Of a stretch of 15,654 nt of DNA, positions 2,862-11,743 are shown in pieces. Positions within the stretch are counted from its first letter, which is position 1; every line of letters starts with the position of its first letter. This stretch comes from a virus (taxonomy: Duplodnaviria > Heunggongvirae > Uroviricota > Caudoviricetes): the IMG/VR virus record IMGVR_UViG_2585427782_000009; one strand, 5' to 3'. A program made the position numbers and the translations under genes. The notes below the pieces were generated by a model. It did no database searches, was not told the DNA's origin, and saw nothing but the letters and a program-made list of their open reading frames with translations.

Positions 2862-3034
2862 TGTCAGGAGTCCTGAATAGTGATTAGAGGAGTCACATGT
2901 CGGCATCAGTTTCCCGACGATGCGCATCCTCCGCCATCAGTCCCGGATGGCTTATCACTGACACAACAGCACCTTAGCGAATCGCGGGGCGCGACTCAGT
3001 AGCCTTGCCGTGTATTCATCACGGCGAGGTATTC
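2862..3034. promoter_or_regulatory. Divergent intergenic region between O and P (expected position of the Ogr-dependent late promoters PO and PP)
   Basis: By position only: in P2 the divergent late promoters lie between O and P. I could not find a clean TGT-N12-ACA Ogr-site consensus by eye, so this call is positional. Confidence 0.35.
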
Positions 3035-4807
3035 ATGACCATCACCACAGACACCACTCTTTTACACGACCCGCGTCGTCAGGCGGCGCTGCTGTACTGG
3101 CAGGGATTTTCCGTGCCGCAGATTGCCGCCATGTTGCAGATGAAACGCCCGACGGTGCAGAGCTGGAAACAGCGCGACGGCTGGGACAGCGTTGCCCCCA
3201 TCAGCCGTGTCGAAATGAGTCTGGAAGCGCGGCTGACCCAGCTCATCATCAAACCGCAGAAAACCGGCGGTGACTTCAAGGAAATTGACCTGCTCGGACG
3301 CCAGATTGAACGACTGGCACGGGTCAACCGTTACAGTCAGACCGGCAACGAGGCAGACCTTAATCCGAACGTCGCTAACCGCAACAAAGGCGGGCGTCGC
3401 AAACCGAAAAAGAATTTTTTCAGTGACGAGGCCATCGAAAAGCTGGAGCAGATTTTCTTTGAGCAGTCTTTCGAATATCAGTTGCACTGGTATCGCGCCG
3501 GGCTTGAGCACCGCATCCGCGATATCCTGAAATCCCGCCAGATTGGCGCGACGTTTTATTTTTCCCGCGAGGCGCTGCTGCGCGCCCTAAAAACCGGTCA
3601 TAACCAGATTTTTCTGTCGGCCAGTAAAACGCAGGCGTATGTGTTCCGCGAATACATCATCGCCTTTGCCCGGCTGGTTGACGTTGACCTGACCGGTGAC
3701 CCGATTGTCCTGGGCAATAACGGCGCAAAACTGATTTTTCTCGGCACCAACTCCAACACCGCGCAGAGCCATAACGGCGACCTGTACGTCGACGAGATTT
3801 TCTGGATCCCGAATTTTCAGGTACTGCGTAAGGTGGCATCAGGTATGGCCTCACAGAGTCACCTGCGTTCGACCTATTTCTCCACCCCGTCCACACTGGC
3901 GCACGACGCCTACCCGTTCTGGTCGGGTGAACTGTTCAACCGGGGACGCGCCAGCGCCGCCGAACGCGTGGAAATCGACGTCAGTCATAACGCCCTTGCC
4001 GGTGGGCTTCTCTGTGCAGACGGCCAGTGGCGGCAGATTGTCACCATTGAGGACGCGCTGAAAGGCGGCTGCACGCTGTTCGACATTGAGCAGCTCAAAC
4101 GTGAAAACAGCGCCGACGATTTTAAAAACCTGTTCATGTGTGAATTTGTTGACGACAAGGCGTCGGTGTTCCCGTTCGAGGAGCTGCAACGCTGCATGGT
4201 CGACACGCTGGAAGAATGGGAAGACTATGCGCCGTTTGCCGCGAATCCGTTCGGCTCCCGCCCGGTATGGATTGGTTACGACCCGTCACACCGTGGCGAC
4301 AGCGCCGGATGCGTGGTACTGGCACCGCCGGTGGTGGCCGGTGGCAAATTCAGAATACTTGAGCGTCACCAGTGGAAAGGCATGGACTTTGCCACTCAGG
4401 CGGAATCCATCCGCAAACTCACCGAAAAATACAACGTCGAATACATCGGTATTGATGCCACCGGCCTCGGTGTCGGCGTGTTCCAGCTCGTGCGCTCGTT
4501 CTATCCCGCCGCGCGCGATATCCGCTACACACCGGAAATGAAAACCGCAATGGTGCTCAAGGCAAAAGACGTCATCCGCCGTGGCTGTCTGGAATATGAC
4601 GTCAGCGCCACCGACATCACCAGCTCGTTTATGGCTATCCGCAAGACCATGACCAGCAGCGGACGCAGCGCCACCTATGAGGCCAGCCGCAGCGAGGAAG
4701 CCAGCCACGCCGACCTCGCCTGGGCGACCATGCACGCCCTGTTAAATGAGCCACTCACCGCCGGTATCAGCACCCCGCTGACATCCACCATTCTGGAGTT
4801 TTACTGA
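3035..4807 (+). CDS. P: Terminase large (ATPase) subunit gpP
   Basis: 590-aa product from the ATG at 3035 (GAGG ribosome-binding site 6 nt upstream), beginning MTITTDTTLLHDPRRQAALLYWQGFSVPQIAAMLQ..., which matches my memory of P2 gpP in sequence and length. Divergent from O and followed by Q, as in P2. The track ORF starts at an upstream TTG (3005). Confidence 0.9.
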   Translation: MTITTDTTLLHDPRRQAALLYWQGFSVPQIAAMLQMKRPTVQSWKQRDGWDSVAPISRVEMSLEARLTQLIIKPQKTGGDFKEIDLLGRQIERLARVNRYSQTGNEADLNPNVANRNKGGRRKPKKNFFSDEAIEKLEQIFFEQSFEYQLHWYRAGLEHRIRDILKSRQIGATFYFSREALLRALKTGHNQIFLSASKTQAYVFREYIIAFARLVDVDLTGDPIVLGNNGAKLIFLGTNSNTAQSHNGDLYVDEIFWIPNFQVLRKVASGMASQSHLRSTYFSTPSTLAHDAYPFWSGELFNRGRASAAERVEIDVSHNALAGGLLCADGQWRQIVTIEDALKGGCTLFDIEQLKRENSADDFKNLFMCEFVDDKASVFPFEELQRCMVDTLEEWEDYAPFAANPFGSRPVWIGYDPSHRGDSAGCVVLAPPVVAGGKFRILERHQWKGMDFATQAESIRKLTEKYNVEYIGIDATGLGVGVFQLVRSFYPAARDIRYTPEMKTAMVLKAKDVIRRGCLEYDVSATDITSSFMAIRKTMTSSGRSATYEASRSEEASHADLAWATMHALLNEPLTAGISTPLTSTILEFY

Positions 4808-5846: not shown

Positions 5847-5868
5847 GCCGCCTGCGGGCGGCTTTTTT
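5847..5868 (+). terminator. Rho-independent terminator after Q
   Basis: GCCGCCTGCGGGCGGC hairpin followed by TTTTTT, 6 nt after the Q stop codon. Confidence 0.6.
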
Positions 5869-6010
5869 ACACCCCGTCATCACGCCCTCACACGCTCACC
5901 ACCGCACAAAACAGCCCGCATACACGCCAACGCCCCGGCGAACAATCTAAACGCCATCACGACGCGCTCAGACGCTGAAAAAATAAAATCAGCACCACCG
6001 CCAGCGCGCA

Positions 6011-6029
6011 GTGCTTTCCCCGCCTCGCC
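6011..6029. other. cos site: 19-nt cohesive-end sequence of P2/186/P4 type
   Basis: GTGCTTTCCCCGCCTCGCC is the reverse complement of GGCGAGGCGGGGAAAGCAC, which I recall as the P2 cohesive end. It is located just beyond Q, as in P2. Confidence 0.8.
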
Positions 6030-6157
6030 CGCCCGCTTCGTGGGGTGGTTTTCATGCAGTTGCATGAACTAGCCGAATCCGCGCCAGTATTGACATTGAC
6101 GTTTCGATATGGATTTGGCGTAAGCATGCAAATTAGGGCACTATCATGCTATTTTCT

Positions 6158-9100
6158 TTACAATGTTGGAGCATCAATCAGACACTTATCTCGCTCCACC
6201 TTTAGTGCCAAAAAACTCAGTCTGATTGATAAATATTTCATATCATCACCTCCTCCACTGATATCAAACTGTTGCTCATTCAACTCCTTAGCATATTCTA
6301 ACTCTTTATCATAAGATGAGGTTACACGCCAAATTACAGAACCACGCTTAAATAAGTAGTATAAGCCATTAACATCCCGATACGCTTTCATAAGCTGCCA
6401 TAACACATCGGTACATCTGTTAAAAAGCTCATCTAATCGCTGCAAGAACAAATAATCATAAACGGCCTTTAATTCCCTCACCCCCTCCGCATCAATTTTT
6501 TCAAACTCTCCGCAACGTACCAACTCTTCATACTTAACAAGTAACGCCCTGGCCTTAGTATACACTCCCCCTTCATTTTTTATGGCATTATCAATATATT
6601 TGAAAGATGAACCAGAAAACAAATAATGAAGTTTAATGCTAATATTATTAGCCAGCGTGTTATACCCAGCAGCTCGGGACTTTTTCTCGAGAGAAATAAG
6701 CTTATTAAGCCTTTTACCATGAGACAATTCGTCAGCCAAATGAACTTCAGCATTGATATAATAACTAGAAGACTTTGGAGCTATCTTTTTTAATTTTATT
6801 GCGTATTTTCGTGCTTTTTCATCATTATATTCAGAGCATGCCATCATAATATTATCAAGCATTTTAAAATAATATTCCTTTTGACAAAACTCTTTTGCCT
6901 CGAACTCATCACTTAAAGGCTCAATAAATTCAACACTTTGTTCAACCTCATCAATCATTCTTAAACTTGTAGCCAAAAAATACGCAGCCCTAAATTTATC
7001 AAGAATATCCAAATGAGAAATATTAGAATAAAGCATCCGAGAAAATGCGACGAGTTCTTTATAGTAACATGCACTCTTTAAAAAGATGCAATATCCTATA
7101 GAAACATGTATTAATGATTTAACTTCTCGATCATAATGATTAATATCTATTAATGAAAAGTATGAACTAATAGCTGAATGGACATTTCCAGGATAAAACT
7201 CCGGGCTTTCAAGCATCATCTTCACTGTAGGAGAGACTCTCACTTTCCCTGACATCCAATCGCTACCGATACAAAGTCCTAGGGATTTTTTTACAAGTTC
7301 ATACCGTTGGTTAGGATCCATACCCTGCTTTACAAAATCACTAACAACTGGTGATATCCTTAACATTTTATAATTATCCTTTGTAATTGTATAAATCAGA
7401 CCATATCTTTCTAGTTTTGCGAAATCATCAAAATGAAAATCATACGATGAATAATAAGAGCGAATATTTGTCAATTTCTCCCCATATTCAAGCATAGAGA
7501 AAATGCATAGTAATGAATATAGTTTTCTATTATCACTTCTAATCTCGTTTATTTGCTTGGATATGTAGTGTGGAATGTCCGTATTTGTTCCCTCTGCCGA
7601 AACAACAATATTTCCTGCATCAAGGACTTCATCAAATGACATTAACTCATAATACTCTTTAACCTTATCTAATTTTAAAGGTATTCCATTTGTTATTTCA
7701 TACAACCTATCAAGTTTCTCTCTTTTTATTTCAGTAATATCAGTGCCAACTTTAATATACTCCTTTATATCATCTAAAGATAAAGGCTGTAATTCCACTA
7801 TACCAGAGCATATCCCGTTACATGTCGCTGATACAAAAATAACTTTCACACCAGAACTAAGATCTGATGATAATTTCGCAATCTCAGAAAAGAAAGCTTT
7901 AGTTGATGGAGGAAGTCTGGCTATGTTATCAAGAATTAAAATCCGCTTTCCTAATCCATTATTAGATATGAAGGTTGCAATATCGATACCGATATCCTGT
8001 TTTATTTTAACTTCAATATCACGAGATTCAGTCAATCCATTGACATCACTATAATAACATGTAAAATCATAAAATTCATCATGAATAAAAGAATATAAAA
8101 AACCTGCTTTTCCGTATCCCCAACCAGAAACAAGCTCAAAATGATTGTTATTATTTAAATAATCAGTGGCTTTTTTTTGCTCTACTAATCTAATTATATC
8201 ATGCGCAGGCTCAACTGAAAGGTTATAGGGTCTCAGCGAAATAACTATGCTTTCTGTTATCGGCTGTAATCCAGTTTTTTTTACAACAAACTTACTTAAT
8301 TGTTTTTTTTTACTAATCTCAGCCAAAGCATCCTCAAAGTATGTATTACAGTCAACCCCAACATATCCTTGAAAACGAGCATTAACAAGCGCTGGTTGAA
8401 TAATTTCAATCAATCGTGAATGTTCTTTACTCACATCATCAATTGAGTTTTTATAAAAACCCCATCTAACATTATAACTTGGCTGAAACTCATGGACGAT
8501 GTTTCTTAACGCCTGTAGAAAAACATCATCCCAACCTGCATATCCAATAACATATAATTTACTTGTATCCAATATATTTTTTATTGACAACTCAATTTTT
8601 TTCCTCAATGAAGAAAGCTGAGTTTGAGTATGCATAGTATCTCCATCCCAAACTCCATGTAAATGCACTACGGGAATGGATTCGCCTGAATAGCTGGTAA
8701 CGCTACCAATTGGTTGATCTACAATAAGATTATGTACATTACAATTTCTATTTACTCTAAACAATGCCTCTTCAATCAATGGATCAAAATTTGTTGTAAG
8801 TATGCATTTTACTTTAATGCTAGTTTCTGAAATAAGCCTTGAAAAATCATCAAGTGATTTAGTAATTAACCATTTGTCGCCGCTCCTTGCATTATTCATT
8901 GCAAGAGCCATTATTTCTTTAACTTCATCTTGATCACCTACCTTCAAAAGGTATTCGAAACTTTTTTGATATTTATCAGTTTCACTTAAACCGATTATGT
9001 TACTTTCAAAGCCATCATAAATATCTAAATCAATCATATATTGCCGCAGAATATCATTCATCCCTGAAACGCCCGGTACCCCATTCCCCTCCGGCGAGCA

Positions 9101-9193
9101 ACTCACGGCTGACCCCAGAAGAAAACTAACGTCTTTACCTTTCCGAATATCCAATACCAAAGACTTTACAAATTCAGTATAAGAATTAAACAT
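6158..9193 (-). CDS. SIR2-like (SIR2_2-type) NAD+-hydrolase domain protein of about 1,011 aa with a long C-terminal region; candidate single-gene anti-phage defence protein carried as prophage hotspot cargo
   Basis: Long minus-strand ORF (track 6158..9286, TTG start). I place the start at the ATG at 9193 (MFNSYTEFVKSL...), which has an AAGGGA ribosome-binding site about 8 nt upstream. N-terminal motifs FLLGSAVS, ILTTNFDPLIEEAL, VVHLHGV and YVIGYAGWDD resemble the conserved blocks of bacterial defence sirtuins (ThsA, DSR1, DSR2). The gene is visibly AT-rich compared with flanking phage genes and has no partner gene in the hotspot. Confidence 0.8.
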   Translation of the reverse strand: MFNSYTEFVKSLVLDIRKGKDVSFLLGSAVSCSPEGNGVPGVSGMNDILRQYMIDLDIYDGFESNIIGLSETDKYQKSFEYLLKVGDQDEVKEIMALAMNNARSGDKWLITKSLDDFSRLISETSIKVKCILTTNFDPLIEEALFRVNRNCNVHNLIVDQPIGSVTSYSGESIPVVHLHGVWDGDTMHTQTQLSSLRKKIELSIKNILDTSKLYVIGYAGWDDVFLQALRNIVHEFQPSYNVRWGFYKNSIDDVSKEHSRLIEIIQPALVNARFQGYVGVDCNTYFEDALAEISKKKQLSKFVVKKTGLQPITESIVISLRPYNLSVEPAHDIIRLVEQKKATDYLNNNNHFELVSGWGYGKAGFLYSFIHDEFYDFTCYYSDVNGLTESRDIEVKIKQDIGIDIATFISNNGLGKRILILDNIARLPPSTKAFFSEIAKLSSDLSSGVKVIFVSATCNGICSGIVELQPLSLDDIKEYIKVGTDITEIKREKLDRLYEITNGIPLKLDKVKEYYELMSFDEVLDAGNIVVSAEGTNTDIPHYISKQINEIRSDNRKLYSLLCIFSMLEYGEKLTNIRSYYSSYDFHFDDFAKLERYGLIYTITKDNYKMLRISPVVSDFVKQGMDPNQRYELVKKSLGLCIGSDWMSGKVRVSPTVKMMLESPEFYPGNVHSAISSYFSLIDINHYDREVKSLIHVSIGYCIFLKSACYYKELVAFSRMLYSNISHLDILDKFRAAYFLATSLRMIDEVEQSVEFIEPLSDEFEAKEFCQKEYYFKMLDNIMMACSEYNDEKARKYAIKLKKIAPKSSSYYINAEVHLADELSHGKRLNKLISLEKKSRAAGYNTLANNISIKLHYLFSGSSFKYIDNAIKNEGGVYTKARALLVKYEELVRCGEFEKIDAEGVRELKAVYDYLFLQRLDELFNRCTDVLWQLMKAYRDVNGLYYLFKRGSVIWRVTSSYDKELEYAKELNEQQFDISGGGDDMKYLSIRLSFLALKVERDKCLIDAPTL

Positions 9194-9375
9194 TAAGCAA
9201 TCCCTTTCGTTATATGACGAAACTACAAGCAGAGAATTTCTGATAATTTTTACATTATGAAACCAAAGCATCAACACATAATACAAAACAAAAATAACTT
9301 ATTGATTTGTATATAATTTCCATTATAAGTCTACACGTAATGCTACAGGAGCATTTTGAAGACCACTCCCCGCTT

Positions 9376-11478
9376 TTATATAAAATCACCAATCATGAGT
9401 AAACATGAATCTAGGGAGCGAGCTGTGTCTCGCAGATAATTTTGTGTCCTTAGACCGTGTTTTAGTGCACCTCTGAGCGCCCTCACGACCTCCGGGTCAT
9501 TCCATTCGATAACACCGTCATCAACCAGATTAAGCACTGCTGCGGCGTGCTCAGAAGGCGTGGGAGCCGGTAACGAAGTATCACCACCGGTGAGCTTTCC
9601 ACAGTTATTGACAGGACTCCGAGGCGCGGCGATGCCGCTTTTTAAAGTCAAAGGCTCAACGACCGGAACTTTCGGCACAATGCGCCAATCCGTGGTTCTG
9701 GTGATATGAATATGACGCGCGCCGAGATGCGGTGCGTAAATGCCGACCACTCTCTCGACTTCTTCCTCGTACTCGTTAACGTCATCCGACGGGCTACGGG
9801 CGACTCTGACAGTCTGACAATCGCGCGGAACATTTGCCCCACCCTGCGCGCTGATATACAACGCAAAATCACCACTGTCTGCGGCGGCGCGTGCAGCCTC
9901 GACGCGCTCGTCAAACTCATCAGCAATGCTGACGCCGCGCGGCAATTTGCGTAGTTCACGGTAAGCCCCCATTGTCGGCAGGCCAACCGTTTTAAATTGC
10001 GGGATGCGCCACGTTGACGCCCATGCGGTAACAGCCGCTGCAGTGTCTTTCAGCGGCCTGCCGGTATCGTTATCGAGCTGACCATCCAGTGCATAGCCGT
10101 CGATGTTTTTTGAAATGTATTTCGCGATATATCCCGCAGCACCGCCCCGGTTAAGGTGTTTTGCCTGAAAACGGTTTCGCGCGGCTCCTCTTTCGTCGCC
10201 ATCCTCTTTGAGCGCATAGCGACGCATGATTTCGATAATCTGGTTGCGCTGGCGTGGATTACAAAAAAGCATCATATGCCAGTGCGGCGTTCCGTCGTGG
10301 TGTGGCTCGACGACACGCAAACCGTAGACCTGTAAATCATTATCCTTGAATGCCGTGCGCATCAGGCTCCAGATACGGCAGAGATAACGCTGCGCATCCT
10401 TTGGATTAAATGCCTCATCGTTCCAGCCGTGATTAAGCTGAACGGTTTTACTTTCGCCTTTTCTGACCTGACGTGTCGGGTGATACTTTGACGGCGCGGT
10501 CAGCGTGATAAACATCCCCACATCACCCTCTGCGGCAGCGTAACGCTCAATACCGGCGATGGTGTTCATCAGCTCCATCCGGCGAATTTCTGGATTAGAA
10601 ATACTGCCCATCACCTTACTGATAAGGTCGATGCGCTCGCCGGTTTCCCTGTTTTCGAGGTCACACGATTTAAGAAATTCCAGATTTGCCTGGCGGCGCG
10701 CACGCACATCACGAATGGCATGTTTACTGGCATAAGGAGAACGGTCTTTATTGACCTCCCCGACAGCAATCAGTAACGCCTCATGCCAGCGCATACGCTG
10801 GCCTTTAAGCTGATGAGTCCACCACTCATCGTTAAACAGGCGGGCAATGGCAGAATATGCCTGCCTCGTGGTCATCTGCCCTTTACGGTATTTTTTCCAG
10901 TAAAGCGGGGAAATATTGAAAGCACGTGCAGCGCCAGCAACATGACCATAGAGGTGAGCCTGCGCCTCATCCGTAAACAGCGATTCTTTTTCGCCATGTG
11001 CATCAACCCAGGCATCGCAGAGTTCCTCATACATCATGAAAAGCTGCGATGAGATACGGGCAGCAAACTTTTTCAGCTCCTTGTCATTCATCCCCGGCAG
11101 GCGCGCATACTGGTCGCGCTCTGCCAGAAACAGCAACGACGCGTCGGTGTTCATTTCATGGCGCTGATTCACACGCTCAATGCGCGGCCATAAACGACGC
11201 TGAAAAGTGGATGTGAGGAAATAAAACCCGTGCACCGGGCTTTTATTGCGCCGGATGTAGTCATAGCGTGAAGTAAACAGCGAGCGCAAAAAGTAAGGCA
11301 GACGGTTAATCGTGGATAAAACCCCTTGCACCTGACGCATCTCGTCACGTGTAAGGGGTCTTTCGCGCCCGACAGCCTCGCGTGGCGCGTTCCATGCATA
11401 AGCACCGGTAAACGCCTTACCGGTGCCTGCGGCAAATGCTGACGGAGGGACAAAACGCCCGGAGGCTTTAACGGCCAT
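9376..11478 (-). CDS. A: Replication initiation protein gpA (rolling-circle initiator)
   Basis: 700-aa product from the first ATG (11478; MAVKASGRFVPPSAFAAGTGK...), matching my memory of the P2 gpA N-terminus. The track ORF begins at an upstream TTG (11520). Last gene of the early operon, as in P2. Confidence 0.9.
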   Translation of the reverse strand: MAVKASGRFVPPSAFAAGTGKAFTGAYAWNAPREAVGRERPLTRDEMRQVQGVLSTINRLPYFLRSLFTSRYDYIRRNKSPVHGFYFLTSTFQRRLWPRIERVNQRHEMNTDASLLFLAERDQYARLPGMNDKELKKFAARISSQLFMMYEELCDAWVDAHGEKESLFTDEAQAHLYGHVAGAARAFNISPLYWKKYRKGQMTTRQAYSAIARLFNDEWWTHQLKGQRMRWHEALLIAVGEVNKDRSPYASKHAIRDVRARRQANLEFLKSCDLENRETGERIDLISKVMGSISNPEIRRMELMNTIAGIERYAAAEGDVGMFITLTAPSKYHPTRQVRKGESKTVQLNHGWNDEAFNPKDAQRYLCRIWSLMRTAFKDNDLQVYGLRVVEPHHDGTPHWHMMLFCNPRQRNQIIEIMRRYALKEDGDERGAARNRFQAKHLNRGGAAGYIAKYISKNIDGYALDGQLDNDTGRPLKDTAAAVTAWASTWRIPQFKTVGLPTMGAYRELRKLPRGVSIADEFDERVEAARAAADSGDFALYISAQGGANVPRDCQTVRVARSPSDDVNEYEEEVERVVGIYAPHLGARHIHITRTTDWRIVPKVPVVEPLTLKSGIAAPRSPVNNCGKLTGGDTSLPAPTPSEHAAAVLNLVDDGVIEWNDPEVVRALRGALKHGLRTQNYLRDTARSLDSCLLMIGDFI

Positions 11479-11743
11479 ATGAGCCAAAAGCCTCTGAACA
11501 ACGCCTGCTGAGTTGCTCAACCTGCGCGTTTAAATCAGCAAAAGACTTTGCGCTTCCGGTCAGAATATCGTGATGCATCAGGCCGGAAACGAGCTGGCTT
11601 AATTTCGGATAATAACCAACCACCGCCAGCCATTCCTGACCGGCGTTTTTACCGCTTTCCGCTCTCTTTTTCTCGTGGAGAATAAACTGAAAGCTGTCAC
11701 TGGTAACGACATAACGTTCGCCAATTTCAATACGAATACTCAT
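11468..11743 (-). CDS. Hypothetical early-operon protein (positional equivalent of P2 orf83)
   Basis: 91-aa ATG-initiated ORF whose start overlaps the upstream stop (ATGA) and whose end overlaps the A start. The orf numbering is by position only. Confidence 0.65.
   Translation of the reverse strand: MSIRIEIGERYVVTSDSFQFILHEKKRAESGKNAGQEWLAVVGYYPKLSQLVSGLMHHDILTGSAKSFADLNAQVEQLSRRCSEAFGSYGR

What the first reader, a model, noticed from the sequence alone, without database searches (positions are those of the whole stretch)
6158..9286. Cargo gene in the cos-proximal prophage hotspot encodes a roughly 1,000-aa SIR2-like protein: candidate single-gene anti-phage system
The interval between cos (6011-6029) and the 3' end of gene A (9376) is where P2 carries old and tin, and this position in P2-like prophages is a known hotspot for variable anti-phage cargo. 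Here it holds one long ORF whose N-terminal part carries motifs I associate with defence sirtuins (ThsA, DSR1, DSR2): FLLGSAVS, TTNFDPLIEEAL, VVHLHG and YVIGYAGWDD. There is no second gene in the hotspot, so this is not a Thoeris-like or SIR2-HerA-like pair. The expected mechanism would be NAD+ depletion and abortive infection, triggered by a phage component sensed through the C-terminal region. I cannot assign it to a named family from sequence alone.
Basis: partly seen in the sequence, partly recalled or inferred. Interest (0 to 1): 0.85.

Follow-up and report, generated by a model that had tools for sequence, protein, structure and literature searches.

The report
SIR2–NLR-like anti-phage gene in P2 prophage
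The variable cargo slot of a P2-like prophage holds one 1,011-residue protein built like a bacterial NLR immune receptor, with an NAD-destroying SIR2 head, an oligomerisation module whose ATP-binding motifs are eroded, and a repeat sensor tail; it is an untested, divergent relative of the known Avs5 anti-phage proteins, not a new kind of system.

Summary
A single intact gene fills the low-GC cargo block (6135-9438, 33.6% GC against about 54% in the phage genes to its left and 48% to its right) between the exact P2 cos 19-mer (6011-6029) and gene A. The true CDS is 6158-9193 on the minus strand, 1,011 aa.

A confident AlphaFold2 model (pLDDT 85.7) shows SIR2, then a STAND/NOD module (NBD-HD-WHD), then a TPR-like sensor. 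The best Foldseek matches are EfAvs5 (E=1.5e-14) and the AVAST5 filament.

It is not a sequence-level Avs5 member:
- It matches no nSTAND3 model and no PADLOC system model.
- Profile searches do not hit the solved Avs5 chains.
- Its nucleotide-binding motifs are non-canonical: GKA replaces GK[S/T], there is no sensor-1 Arg, and there is no WHD His.

The SIR2 catalytic Asn and His are invariant. All three parts are under purifying selection (dN/dS about 0.1). The same NOD+sensor chassis occurs elsewhere fused to TIR, SEFIR and calcineurin-like phosphoesterase heads.

Most likely mechanism: the sensor binds a phage protein, the protein oligomerises, the SIR2 NADase switches on and NAD+ is depleted. 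Function is untested. Verdict: a new variant of a known kind, of moderate interest.

The parts
6158..9193 (-). CDS of the SIR2-NOD-sensor protein (1,011 aa plus TAA stop at 6158-6160)
   Evidence: ORF list; ATG at 9193 with an upstream AAGGGA; same length as RefSeq WP_161993133.1; dN/dS 0.08-0.10 against the Citrobacter homologue
8309..9193 (-). SIR2 effector domain, aa 1-295
8789..8791 (-). Codon of the predicted catalytic Asn135 (TTNFD)
   Evidence: Invariant in 32 homologues. Its TTNFD motif aligns with the TTNFD motif of FAM118B, whose active-site Asn N163 is required for activity. Same motif class and near-identical position as N141 of EfAvs5, whose mutation abolishes defence; no direct alignment to EfAvs5 was obtained.
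8657..8659 (-). Codon of the predicted catalytic His179 (HLHG)
   Evidence: Invariant in 32 homologues. Its HLHG motif aligns with the HIHG motif of FAM118B, whose active-site His H206 is required for activity.
8210..8308 (-). Low-confidence linker, aa 296-328
   Evidence: pLDDT below 50 for aa 296-317; length-variable in the family alignment
7784..8209 (-). Nucleotide-binding-domain-like fold of the NOD, aa 329-470
8099..8128 (-). Non-canonical P-loop SGWGYGKAGF, aa 356-365
   Evidence: Aligns with the Walker A GGQGKS of SIR2-NB-ARC relatives. The S/T after Lys is Ala here. Lys is lost in 4 of 32 family members. It is replaced in many of the wider-clade representatives, where the residue after it is mostly acidic.
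7922..7942 (-). Walker B-like strand ILILDNI, aa 418-424
   Evidence: The acidic residue is D or E in all 32 family members; aligns with LLVFDNV of NB-ARC-type relatives and IIIIDDF of PH0952
7604..7783 (-). Helical domain with the GxP motif (GIPLKLD, aa 503-509, nt 7667-7687)
   Evidence: P505 invariant and G503 nearly invariant; aligns with GHPLW of NB-ARC-type relatives and GHPLML of PH0952
7316..7603 (-). Winged-helix domain, aa 531-626; carries LRISPVV at the position where the NB-ARC-type relatives have a conserved His
   Evidence: Model topology; hhalign without the SIR2 part gives 93% probability, E=2.7e-7, over aa 405-637; His absent in the family
6161..7315 (-). All-helical TPR-like sensor, aa 627-1011
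6135..9438 (.). Low-GC cargo block of the hotspot (33.6% GC)
   Evidence: Composition; P2-type homology ends at about 6134 and resumes at 9439
6011..6029 (-). cos cohesive-end 19-mer
   Evidence: Exact match; 0 expected by chance. The P2 cos sequence was supplied from memory.
9376..11481 (-). Gene A (replication endonuclease) with a replaced 3' end
   Evidence: The first 680 residues match a 762-aa Peduovirus gpA at 99% identity; the C-terminal ~82 residues are replaced by about 20 unrelated residues; RefSeq marks it incomplete

Best explanation
The gene encodes a single-protein, NLR-like anti-phage sensor-effector carried as cargo in the cos-proximal hotspot of a P2-like prophage.

**Shown here**
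- Three modules: an N-terminal SIR2 domain with an intact, invariant Asn/His catalytic pair; a central STAND-type NOD (NBD-HD-WHD fold with GxP motif and Walker B acidic residue); and a C-terminal TPR-like solenoid.
- The gene is always stand-alone and sits in mobile or variable loci.
- The NOD+sensor chassis is recombined in nature with other immune effector heads: TIR, SEFIR and calcineurin-like phosphoesterase.

**Inferred by analogy with Avs5 (EfAvs5, PaAvs5) and other Avs proteins**
- The solenoid binds a phage protein.
- Binding releases autoinhibition and drives NOD-mediated oligomerisation or filament formation.
- This brings SIR2 domains together and switches on NAD+ hydrolysis.
- NAD+ loss halts phage replication, through abortive infection or growth arrest.

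**Specific inference for this clade**
- The Walker A S/T, the sensor-1 Arg and the WHD His are not conserved.
- The NOD therefore probably acts mainly as an oligomerisation scaffold. It may bind nucleotide weakly or atypically and is unlikely to hydrolyse it.
For: **SIR2 head**
- SIR2_2 scores above the Pfam threshold.
- TTNFD and HxHG are invariant in 32 homologues spanning 25-78% identity.

**Three-domain architecture**
- AF2 model with pLDDT 85.7 and pTM 0.65, showing the three-module topology.
- Foldseek top hits are EfAvs5 9jap_A (E=1.5e-14) and the AVAST5 filament 9nc9 (E=5.5e-13). SAMD9, STAND-TPR 6mfv, CED-4 and Apaf-1 follow.

**Sequence-level STAND homology without the SIR2 part**
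- hhalign gives 93% probability, E=2.7e-7, to the NB-ARC-type SIR2-STAND-TPR group.
- The NOD-only profile hits STAND protein PH0952 (6mfv) at E=2e-4, running through Walker B, sensor-1 and GxP.

**Effector swapping**
- phmmer with aa 321-1011 finds 424 cluster representatives.
- Of the top 141, 74 carry a Metallophos-like head and 25 a SIR2 head by my local HMM classification. Of the rest, 29 have no N-terminal domain or are fragments, and 13 were left unassigned.
- Pfam on 9 of those 13 gave two TIR_2, one SEFIR, one weak DUF4062, three more Metallophos, one more SIR2_2 and one with no hit.
- The sampled TIR and SEFIR heads and some other sampled heads match PADLOC models ThsB-TIR, bSEFIR and PDC-S60.

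**Context and selection**
- Homologues at 78% identity (Citrobacter) and 64% identity (Pseudescherichia) sit in the same gpA-portal slot of P2-like prophages.
- Other members lie next to an integrase plus a HEPN gene, next to an AAA_15/21 ATPase, or on a Rep3 plasmid.
- The hotspot is a documented reservoir of defence genes (PMC9122126).
- dN/dS is 0.08-0.10 in each of the three parts.

**Mechanistic precedent**
- EfAvs5: filamentation-activated NADase (PMC11897194).
- PaAvs5: NAD+ hydrolysis on sensing a phage protein (PMC12931631).
Against: - There is no experimental evidence of defence, NADase activity or oligomerisation for this protein or any family member.
- No PADLOC v2 system model, NCBIfam model or Pfam STAND model matches it.
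- In Avs5, the Walker A Lys, the Walker B acidic residue and the sensor-1 Arg are each required for defence. Here the motifs are eroded, so the Avs5 activation scheme may not transfer.
- Global TM-scores to Avs5 are low (0.21-0.29). The similarity is per domain, and the domain arrangement differs.
- No consensus promoter was found upstream, so expression from the prophage is unproven.
- Gene A of this prophage is damaged, so the element may be decaying.
Confidence: 0.72

Rival explanations
1. It is simply a member of the characterised AVAST type 5 (Avs5) family and works exactly like EfAvs5 or PaAvs5. ATP binding at a functional P-loop would license sensor-triggered filamentation and NADase activity.
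For: - The best fold matches are the two solved Avs5 assemblies.
- The domain order is identical, and the key residues sit at nearly the same positions: N135/K362/D422 here against N141/K379/D426 in EfAvs5.
- Avs5 clades themselves share only 18-21% identity.
- Lys362 and Asp422 are retained in this particular protein.
Against: - Avs5 is described as SIR2 plus nSTAND3 (PF20720). That model does not match this protein. It matches one of 19 clade NODs, only at E=0.14.
- Profile searches with the whole family or with the NOD alone do not reach the Avs5 chains in the PDB.
- No AVAST model in PADLOC matches.
- The S/T after Lys, the sensor-1 Arg and the WHD His are not conserved.
- EfAvs5 has Asn at position 180, where other bacterial SIR2 proteins, and this family at the corresponding HLHG position, have His.
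- The accession is absent from the Avs5 homologue files held for PMC12931631.
Confidence: 0.15
2. It works like DSR2 or DSR1. The SIR2 NADase would be held inactive by a large non-enzymatic helical body that binds a phage structural protein directly, and the NOD-like region would be only a structural spacer with no oligomerisation switch.
For: - The nucleotide-binding motifs are eroded.
- The size (~1,000 aa) and single-gene layout resemble DSR2.
- Foldseek matches DSR2 complexes at E=2e-7 to 4e-7.
Against: - No PADLOC DSR1 or DSR2 model is hit.
- The DSR2 matches are about seven orders of magnitude weaker than the Avs5 matches.
- The middle region has a full NBD-HD-WHD fold with conserved GxP and Walker B and significant sequence similarity to STAND proteins.
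- That region is under the same purifying selection as the rest.
- The same chassis is reused with TIR and phosphoesterase heads, as in Avs/NLR families.
Confidence: 0.08
3. It is not an immune gene. It could be a prophage-borne sirtuin with another role, such as protein deacylation or ADP-ribosylation for host takeover or lysogeny control, or a decaying remnant.
For: - No functional data exist.
- About a quarter of P2-like phages carry a non-defence system (plasmid partitioning) in this hotspot, and others carry toxins.
- The prophage has a damaged gene A.
Against: - The ORF is intact, with dN/dS of about 0.1.
- The domain is of the SIR2_2 class. Its structural neighbours are defence NADases: ThsA, KomC, SIR2-HerA and Avs5.
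- Fusion to NOD plus TPR, and interchange with TIR and SEFIR heads, is the signature of immune NLR-like proteins.
- The family also occurs outside prophages, next to integrase/HEPN and AAA_15/21 genes.
Confidence: 0.05

Closest known systems
AVAST type 5 / Avs5 (EfAvs5 PDB 9jap; AVAST5 filament 9nc9; PaAvs5, EcAvs5)
   Same: - A single polypeptide of about 1,000 aa with the order SIR2, STAND NOD, helical repeat sensor.
- The best fold matches.
- Catalytic Asn, P-loop Lys and Walker B Asp at almost the same residue numbers.
- Expected output: NAD+ hydrolysis on sensing a phage protein.
   Different: - Only 11-14% identity, and no HMM-level match.
- The NOD is not nSTAND3.
- Walker A is GKA instead of GK[S/T], and sensor-1 is 'SAT' instead of 'TTR'.
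- The SIR2 keeps the catalytic His where EfAvs5 has Asn180.
- The predicted domain packing differs (TM 0.21-0.29).
Uncharacterised SIR2-NB-ARC-TPR and SIR2-nSTAND5-TPR proteins (alignments A4 and A3)
   Same: - The SIR2 domains are clearly homologous: hhalign E=1e-67 to 1e-74, about 31% identity over the SIR2 domain for A3.
- The NB-ARC group also aligns through Walker B, GxP and the WHD, and it shares the 'DN' Walker B.
   Different: - Those groups have canonical GxGK[S/T] P-loops, a sensor-1 Arg and a WHD His, and they match Pfam STAND models.
- This family has none of these features.
- There is no detectable similarity to the nSTAND5 group outside the SIR2 domain.
TIR-NLR of P4-like satellites (Rousset et al. 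2022, PMC9122126)
   Same: - A hotspot-borne single protein with an NAD-consuming head, a STAND NTPase and C-terminal TPRs.
- The paper notes that the TIR head can be replaced by SIR2 in other proteins of that P4-satellite hotspot.
- TIR-headed relatives of this very chassis exist.
   Different: - The head domain differs.
- No sequence comparison was possible, because the protein is truncated in the held supplement.
- No PADLOC model matched outside the SIR2 region.
DSR2 / DSR1 defence-associated sirtuins
   Same: An N-terminal SIR2 NADase on a single large helical protein that senses a phage protein; weaker fold matches.
   Different: Among the top fold matches, DSR2 ranks well below the STAND proteins (Avs5, 6mfv); from general knowledge DSR2 has no NOD module. 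There is no PADLOC DSR hit. Here the middle third is a STAND fold.
Human FAM118B/FAM118A (SIRal) sirtuins
   Same: - The closest solved structure by sequence to the SIR2 domain: profile E=1e-8, with TTNFD and HxHG aligned.
- FAM118B activity depends on filament formation.
   Different: The solved FAM118B chains are SIR2-only (298-371 residues) with no NOD or sensor, and FAM118B is a vertebrate protein.
Thoeris ThsA and SIR2-HerA
   Different: There is no SLOG domain, no ThsB or HerA partner gene in the locus, and no PADLOC ThsA hit.

Membership tests
SIR2_2 (PF13289) defence-type sirtuin domain | Pfam model matched above the gathering score | tested here: met
   31.3 bits against 24.5, E=2.5e-7, aa 130-238; all full-length homologues tested also match
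SIR2_2 (PF13289) defence-type sirtuin domain | Catalytic Asn (TxN) and His (HxHG) present and conserved | tested here: met
   N135 and H179 are invariant in 32 sequences. Their motifs align with TTNFD and HIHG of FAM118B, whose active-site residues N163 and H206 are required for activity.
STAND / NLR-like NTPase superfamily | NBD-HD-WHD three-subdomain NOD fold | tested here: met
STAND / NLR-like NTPase superfamily | Sequence-level homology of the NOD to recognised STAND proteins | tested here: met
   hhalign of aa 320-640 against the NB-ARC-type group gives 93% probability, E=2.7e-7. The NOD-only profile hits STAND protein PH0952 at E=2e-4. No Pfam STAND model is hit significantly.
STAND / NLR-like NTPase superfamily | Canonical Walker A GxxxxGK[S/T] | tested here: not met
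   The window protein has GWGYGKA. The family shows GK followed by A, S, T, F, L, M, Y, D or E, and Lys is lost in 4 of 32. In the wider clade the consensus is DWGxGx[D/E]GF and Lys is replaced in many representatives.
STAND / NLR-like NTPase superfamily | Walker B acidic residue and GxP motif | tested here: met
   D422 (D or E in all 32); G503 and P505 conserved
STAND / NLR-like NTPase superfamily | Sensor-1 Arg and WHD His ('MHD'-like) that contact the nucleotide | tested here: not met
   Sensor-1 position is 'SAT'; the WHD position is 'RISP'. The NB-ARC-type relatives have TCR and LHP at the aligned positions.
AVAST type 5 (Avs5) | SIR2, STAND, repeat-sensor single-gene architecture | tested here: met
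   no partner gene
AVAST type 5 (Avs5) | NOD of the nSTAND3 type (PF20720), as described for EfAvs5 and PaAvs5 | tested here: not met
   No PF20720 hit at E<=1 for the protein; 1 of 19 clade NODs matches, at E=0.14. Definition taken.
AVAST type 5 (Avs5) | Detectable sequence homology to characterised Avs5 proteins or a defence-database AVAST model | tested here: not met
   phmmer and two profile searches of the PDB do not reach 9jap or 9nc9. No AVAST model appears among the PADLOC hits. I could not verify independently that PADLOC v2 holds an Avs5 model.
AVAST type 5 (Avs5) | Phage-triggered NAD+ hydrolysis and defence dependent on SIR2 and P-loop residues | not testable with these tools
   Requires plaque assays, NAD+ measurement and point mutants
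DSR1 / DSR2 | Match to DSR models, and a non-NTPase helical body after the SIR2 domain | tested here: not met
   No PADLOC DSR hit; the middle region is a STAND fold
Thoeris (ThsA+ThsB) and SIR2-HerA | SLOG domain with an adjacent ThsB TIR gene, or an adjacent HerA gene | tested here: not met
   Single gene in the cargo block; no ThsA or HerA models hit
P2-like prophage cos-proximal (gpA-gpQ) hotspot cargo | Located between the portal gene Q/cos and replication gene A of a P2-like prophage, with foreign composition | tested here: met
   Annotation of the identical locus in E. coli GYB01; cos match; GC 33.6%; hotspot definition in PMC9122126

The most novel reading that the evidence does not exclude
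The protein represents a previously unclassified clade of bacterial NLR-like immune proteins. The clade has hundreds of 50%-identity clusters and carries SIR2, TIR, SEFIR or calcineurin-like phosphoesterase heads. Its NOD would have become a pseudo-NTPase: ligand-driven oligomerisation and effector activation would proceed without nucleotide binding or exchange. That differs from Avs5 and every other characterised Avs, in which P-loop residues are essential.
Probability: 0.3. Interest if true: 0.65.

Novelty: new variant of a known kind. Interest (0 to 1): 0.5.

Why it matters
- **Annotation gap.** If it defends, it adds a SIR2-NLR cargo to the P2 hotspot repertoire. It also identifies a NOD+sensor chassis that Pfam, NCBIfam and PADLOC v2 do not recognise, so it is probably under-counted in annotations that rely on these libraries.
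- **A test of what the NOD needs.** The eroded Walker A, sensor-1 and WHD motifs sit beside a perfectly conserved SIR2 active site. This is a natural test of whether a STAND module needs its nucleotide switch to license an immune effector. The same question is open for P-loop-independent plant NLRs.
- **A bacterial model for human SIRal sirtuins.** By sequence, the SIR2 head is closer to human FAM118B than to any solved bacterial defence sirtuin. The family could therefore serve as a tractable bacterial model for that clade.
- **Practical relevance.** The gene is rare, in 4 of 5,426 complete E. coli genomes, and all four isolates came from humans. It may shape the phage susceptibility of those lineages.

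Tried and rejected
- **NCBIfam:** no hit.
- **Single-sequence PDB search:** only spurious TOC75 matches at E=0.01.
- **PADLOC:** only SIR2-domain-level hits to Argonaute-associated SIR2 models and PDC-S65, and no named system. I therefore rejected DSR1, DSR2, ThsA, SIR2-HerA and SPARSA membership.
- **tblastn against 50,697 phage records:** no match. The gene is not known from sequenced free phages.
- **Accession look-ups:** WP_161993133 is absent from the supplements of the Avs5 paper and the P2/P4 hotspot paper. The single SIR2 gene tested there (pFR88, from a P4 satellite) starts with an unrelated sequence.
- **Comparison with the validated TIR-NLR protein:** not possible, because its sequence is truncated in the held supplement.
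- **nSTAND5-type relatives:** hhalign shows no similarity beyond the SIR2 domain.
- **Promoter scan:** the count is no higher than in shuffled sequence, and nothing lies upstream of the ATG. A candidate I read by eye turned out to be TAAAAA, not TAAAAT. Only an isolated TATAAT lies about 120 nt upstream.
- **Pfam scan of the 111-sequence alignment:** I replaced it with local HMM classification.
- **Diversifying selection in the sensor:** not seen. dN/dS is 0.08, the same as in the other parts, although dS is near saturation.

Full report
**1. The observation**

The window carries the late and early regions of a P2-like prophage: capsid, terminase, portal, then cos, a cargo block, and gene A through to the integrase. 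ORF 6158..9286 on the minus strand is real. The mechanical TTG start is probably wrong. An ATG at 9193 preceded by AAGGGA gives 1,011 aa, the same length as RefSeq WP_161993133.1, 'SIR2 family protein', annotated at the identical locus of E. coli GYB01.

In this AT-rich DNA a stop is expected at 8.3% of codons, so an open frame of this length has a probability of about 1e-38.

The P2 cos 19-mer, which I supplied from memory, matches exactly at 6011-6029. Homology to other P2-like prophages ends near 6134 and resumes at 9439. The block between has 33.6% GC, against 53.7% and 47.6% in the arms. It holds this one gene and nothing else of note.

**2. What the protein is**

*SIR2 domain.* Pfam SIR2_2 is matched above threshold: 31.3 bits against 24.5. 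NCBIfam gives nothing. PADLOC gives only SIR2-domain-level matches to Argonaute-associated SIR2 and PDC-S65 models, and no ThsA, DSR1, DSR2, HerA-associated or AVAST model.

*The family.* About 35 full-length homologues exist at 78% down to 25% identity, all in Gammaproteobacteria: Citrobacter, Serratia, Pectobacterium, Dickeya, Aeromonas, Shewanella, Vibrio and others. Beyond them, hundreds of proteins share only the SIR2 domain. These carry nSTAND5 or NB-ARC/NACHT domains plus TPRs. That was the first sign that the family belongs to the SIR2-STAND world.

*Structure.* An AlphaFold2 model built on a 32-sequence alignment is confident, with pLDDT 85.7 and pTM 0.65. It resolves:
- SIR2, aa 1-295
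- a disordered linker, aa 296-328
- an alpha/beta nucleotide-binding-type domain, aa 329-470
- a helical domain, aa 471-530
- a winged-helix domain, aa 531-626
- a helical solenoid, aa 627-1006

*Sequence-level support for the NOD.*
- With the SIR2 part removed, hhalign aligns aa 405-637 to the NB-ARC-type group at 93% probability, E=2.7e-7.
- A NOD-only profile of the clade hits the STAND protein PH0952 (6mfv) at E=2e-4. The alignment runs through Walker B, sensor-1 and the GxP motif.

**3. How it differs from Avs5**

Avs5 proteins are described as SIR2 plus nSTAND3. Their P-loop Lys, Walker B acidic residue and sensor-1 Arg are each required for defence. EfAvs5 holds ATP with K379/S380, D426 and the 'TTR' Arg453.

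In this family:
- nSTAND3 is not matched.
- Profile searches never reach the Avs5 chains in the PDB.
- The accession is absent from the Avs5 homologue files held for PMC12931631.

The nucleotide-binding motifs are eroded, as follows.

| Motif | This protein | Family (32 sequences) | Wider clade |
|---|---|---|---|
| Walker A | GWGYGKA | A, S or T after Lys only in the nearest subclade; F, L, M, Y, D or E elsewhere; Lys lost in 4 of 32 | DWGxGx[D/E]GF; Lys replaced in many representatives |
| Walker B | ILILDNI | D or E in all 32 | hhhhD[D/N/E/G] in most; the acidic residue is lost in some |
| Sensor-1 | 'SAT', no Arg | Arg not conserved | 'SR' or 'TR' in most Metallophos-headed members |
| WHD position | 'RISP', no His | His absent | 'LRVPRQV', no His |
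| GxP | GIPLKLD | conserved | conserved |

By contrast, the SIR2 motifs TTNFD and HxHG are invariant in all 32 sequences. dN/dS against the Citrobacter homologue is 0.08-0.10 in the SIR2, NOD and sensor parts alike. The NOD is therefore maintained by selection, but apparently not for canonical NTP binding or hydrolysis.

The SIR2 domain also belongs to a different subgroup from that of EfAvs5. It keeps the catalytic His where EfAvs5 has Asn180. Its best sequence match among solved structures is human FAM118B, at E=1e-8.

**4. Evidence that it is an immune module**

*Position.* The gpA-gpQ/cos locus of P2-like phages, where P2 has old and tin, is a documented hotspot rich in defence systems. 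For the equivalent hotspot of P4-like satellites, the same paper notes STAND-plus-repeat proteins whose TIR head can be replaced by SIR2 (PMC9122126).

*Recurrence in the same slot.* The 78%-identical Citrobacter homologue and the 64%-identical Pseudescherichia homologue sit between gpA and the portal gene of P2-like prophages.

*Other mobile or defence-like contexts.* More distant members lie beside an integrase plus a HEPN gene, beside an AAA_15/21 ATPase, as isolated insertions, or on a Rep3 plasmid next to ParDE. The gene is always alone.

*Effector swapping.* A phmmer search with only the NOD and sensor (aa 321-1011) against 1.84 billion representatives finds 424 relatives, 312 of them at E<=1e-10. 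My local HMM classification of the top 141 gives:
- 74 with a calcineurin-like phosphoesterase (Metallophos-like) head
- 25 with a SIR2 head
- 29 with no N-terminal domain, or fragments
- 13 left unassigned

Pfam on samples confirmed the Metallophos heads. Pfam on 9 of the 13 unassigned proteins gave two TIR_2, one SEFIR, one weak DUF4062 hit, three more Metallophos, one more SIR2_2 and one with no hit. In the sample scanned against PADLOC, heads matched the ThsB-TIR, bSEFIR and PDC-S60 models. The chassis itself matched no PADLOC model. Interchange of NAD-consuming and other effector heads on one NOD+sensor chassis is the signature of Avs/NLR-type immune proteins.

**5. Mechanism**

*Shown:* the domain architecture, the conserved SIR2 active site, the conserved NOD fold with GxP and Walker B, the TPR-like solenoid, the single-gene layout, the mobile contexts and the effector swapping.

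*Inferred from Avs5 and other Avs proteins:* the solenoid binds a phage protein. This relieves autoinhibition and lets the NOD oligomerise. The SIR2 domains are brought together, NADase activity switches on, and NAD+ loss stops the phage. The outcome for the cell, death or recovery, cannot be predicted; EfAvs5-expressing cells survive infection.

*Specific inference for this clade:* the NOD acts as an assembly scaffold with weakened or lost dependence on nucleotide. This protein still has Lys362 and Asp422, so some ATP binding cannot be excluded.

**6. Rarity and status**

The gene occurs in 4 of 5,426 complete E. coli genomes, always at this locus. Full-length relatives occur in 8 of 185,579 species-representative genomes. 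No sequenced phage record carries it. Its 90%-identity cluster holds 181 member sequences.

I found no paper or supplement that lists or tests it. The single SIR2 gene tested in the hotspot paper is unrelated in its N-terminal sequence.

**7. Verdict**

The central STAND module places the protein within a known kind: single-protein SIR2-STAND antiviral NLR-like sensors, whose characterised representatives are the Avs5 proteins. It fails the sequence-defined Avs5 criteria and has a non-canonical NOD, so I rate it a new variant of a known kind. Interest is 0.5. The architecture and location are what a specialist would expect. The unrecognised chassis clade with eroded nucleotide motifs and swapped heads is worth an experiment.

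Noticed in passing
window 9376-9438 (junction at 9438/9439), gene A 9376-11481 minus strand: Gene A matches a 762-aa Peduovirus gpA at 99% over its first 680 residues. Its last ~82 codons are replaced by about 20 codons read from the low-GC cargo DNA. RefSeq marks the gene as incomplete. The cargo exchange therefore cut into the replication gene, and the prophage may be replication-defective.
   Followed up: partly
window 5880-6065 minus strand: A 61-aa ORF annotated 'hypothetical protein' (WP_032304472.1) spans the cos 19-mer. Terminator-like hairpins flank it at 5847-5862 and 6029-6048 (+ strand). It may be an annotation artefact over the packaging site.
   Followed up: no
window 8309-9193 (SIR2 domain): Among solved structures, the best sequence-level match of the family's SIR2 domain is human FAM118B (profile E=1e-8), ahead of every bacterial defence sirtuin. 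This suggests the clade lies close to the bacterial relatives of vertebrate SIRal/FAM118 proteins.
   Followed up: partly
proteins P0139, P0140, P0185, P0243 and 70 others (relatives of window aa 321-1011): The NOD+sensor chassis is fused to a calcineurin-like phosphoesterase (Metallophos) head about three times more often than to SIR2. It is also fused to TIR_2, SEFIR and possibly DUF4062 heads. Neither Pfam STAND models nor PADLOC v2 recognise the chassis. Some heads match the N-termini of the PADLOC candidate PDC-S60.
   Followed up: partly
L002:6001-9120 and L003:998-4117: A 35%-identical paralogue (P0014, 1,039 aa, cluster of 85 sequences) sits in E. coli on a Rep3-type plasmid next to ParD/ParE toxin-antitoxin genes and an integrase. 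The family therefore moves on plasmids as well as on P2-like prophages.
   Followed up: partly
L009:8001-11035; proteins P0010, P0013, P0019, P0121: The Scandinavium homologue is split into 295-aa and 696-aa ORFs at the SIR2/NOD boundary. Several database entries of about 700 aa lack the SIR2 part. These could be frameshifts, assembly fragments or genuine head-less forms.
   Followed up: no
L001 (E. coli GYB01 prophage, identical cargo): In that assembly the terminase ATPase, capsid scaffold and lysozyme genes of the same prophage are annotated as frameshifted. In the window the terminase ORF 3005-4807 is intact (600 aa). The cause could be assembly errors in that record or strain-specific decay of the prophage.
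   Followed up: no
window 9194-9438 minus strand (upstream of the CDS): The consensus scan found no sigma-70-like promoter in the 245 nt between gene A's new stop and the ATG. There is only an isolated perfect TATAAT about 120 nt upstream. The gene might be co-transcribed with the early operon through gene A or use a non-consensus promoter.
   Followed up: partly
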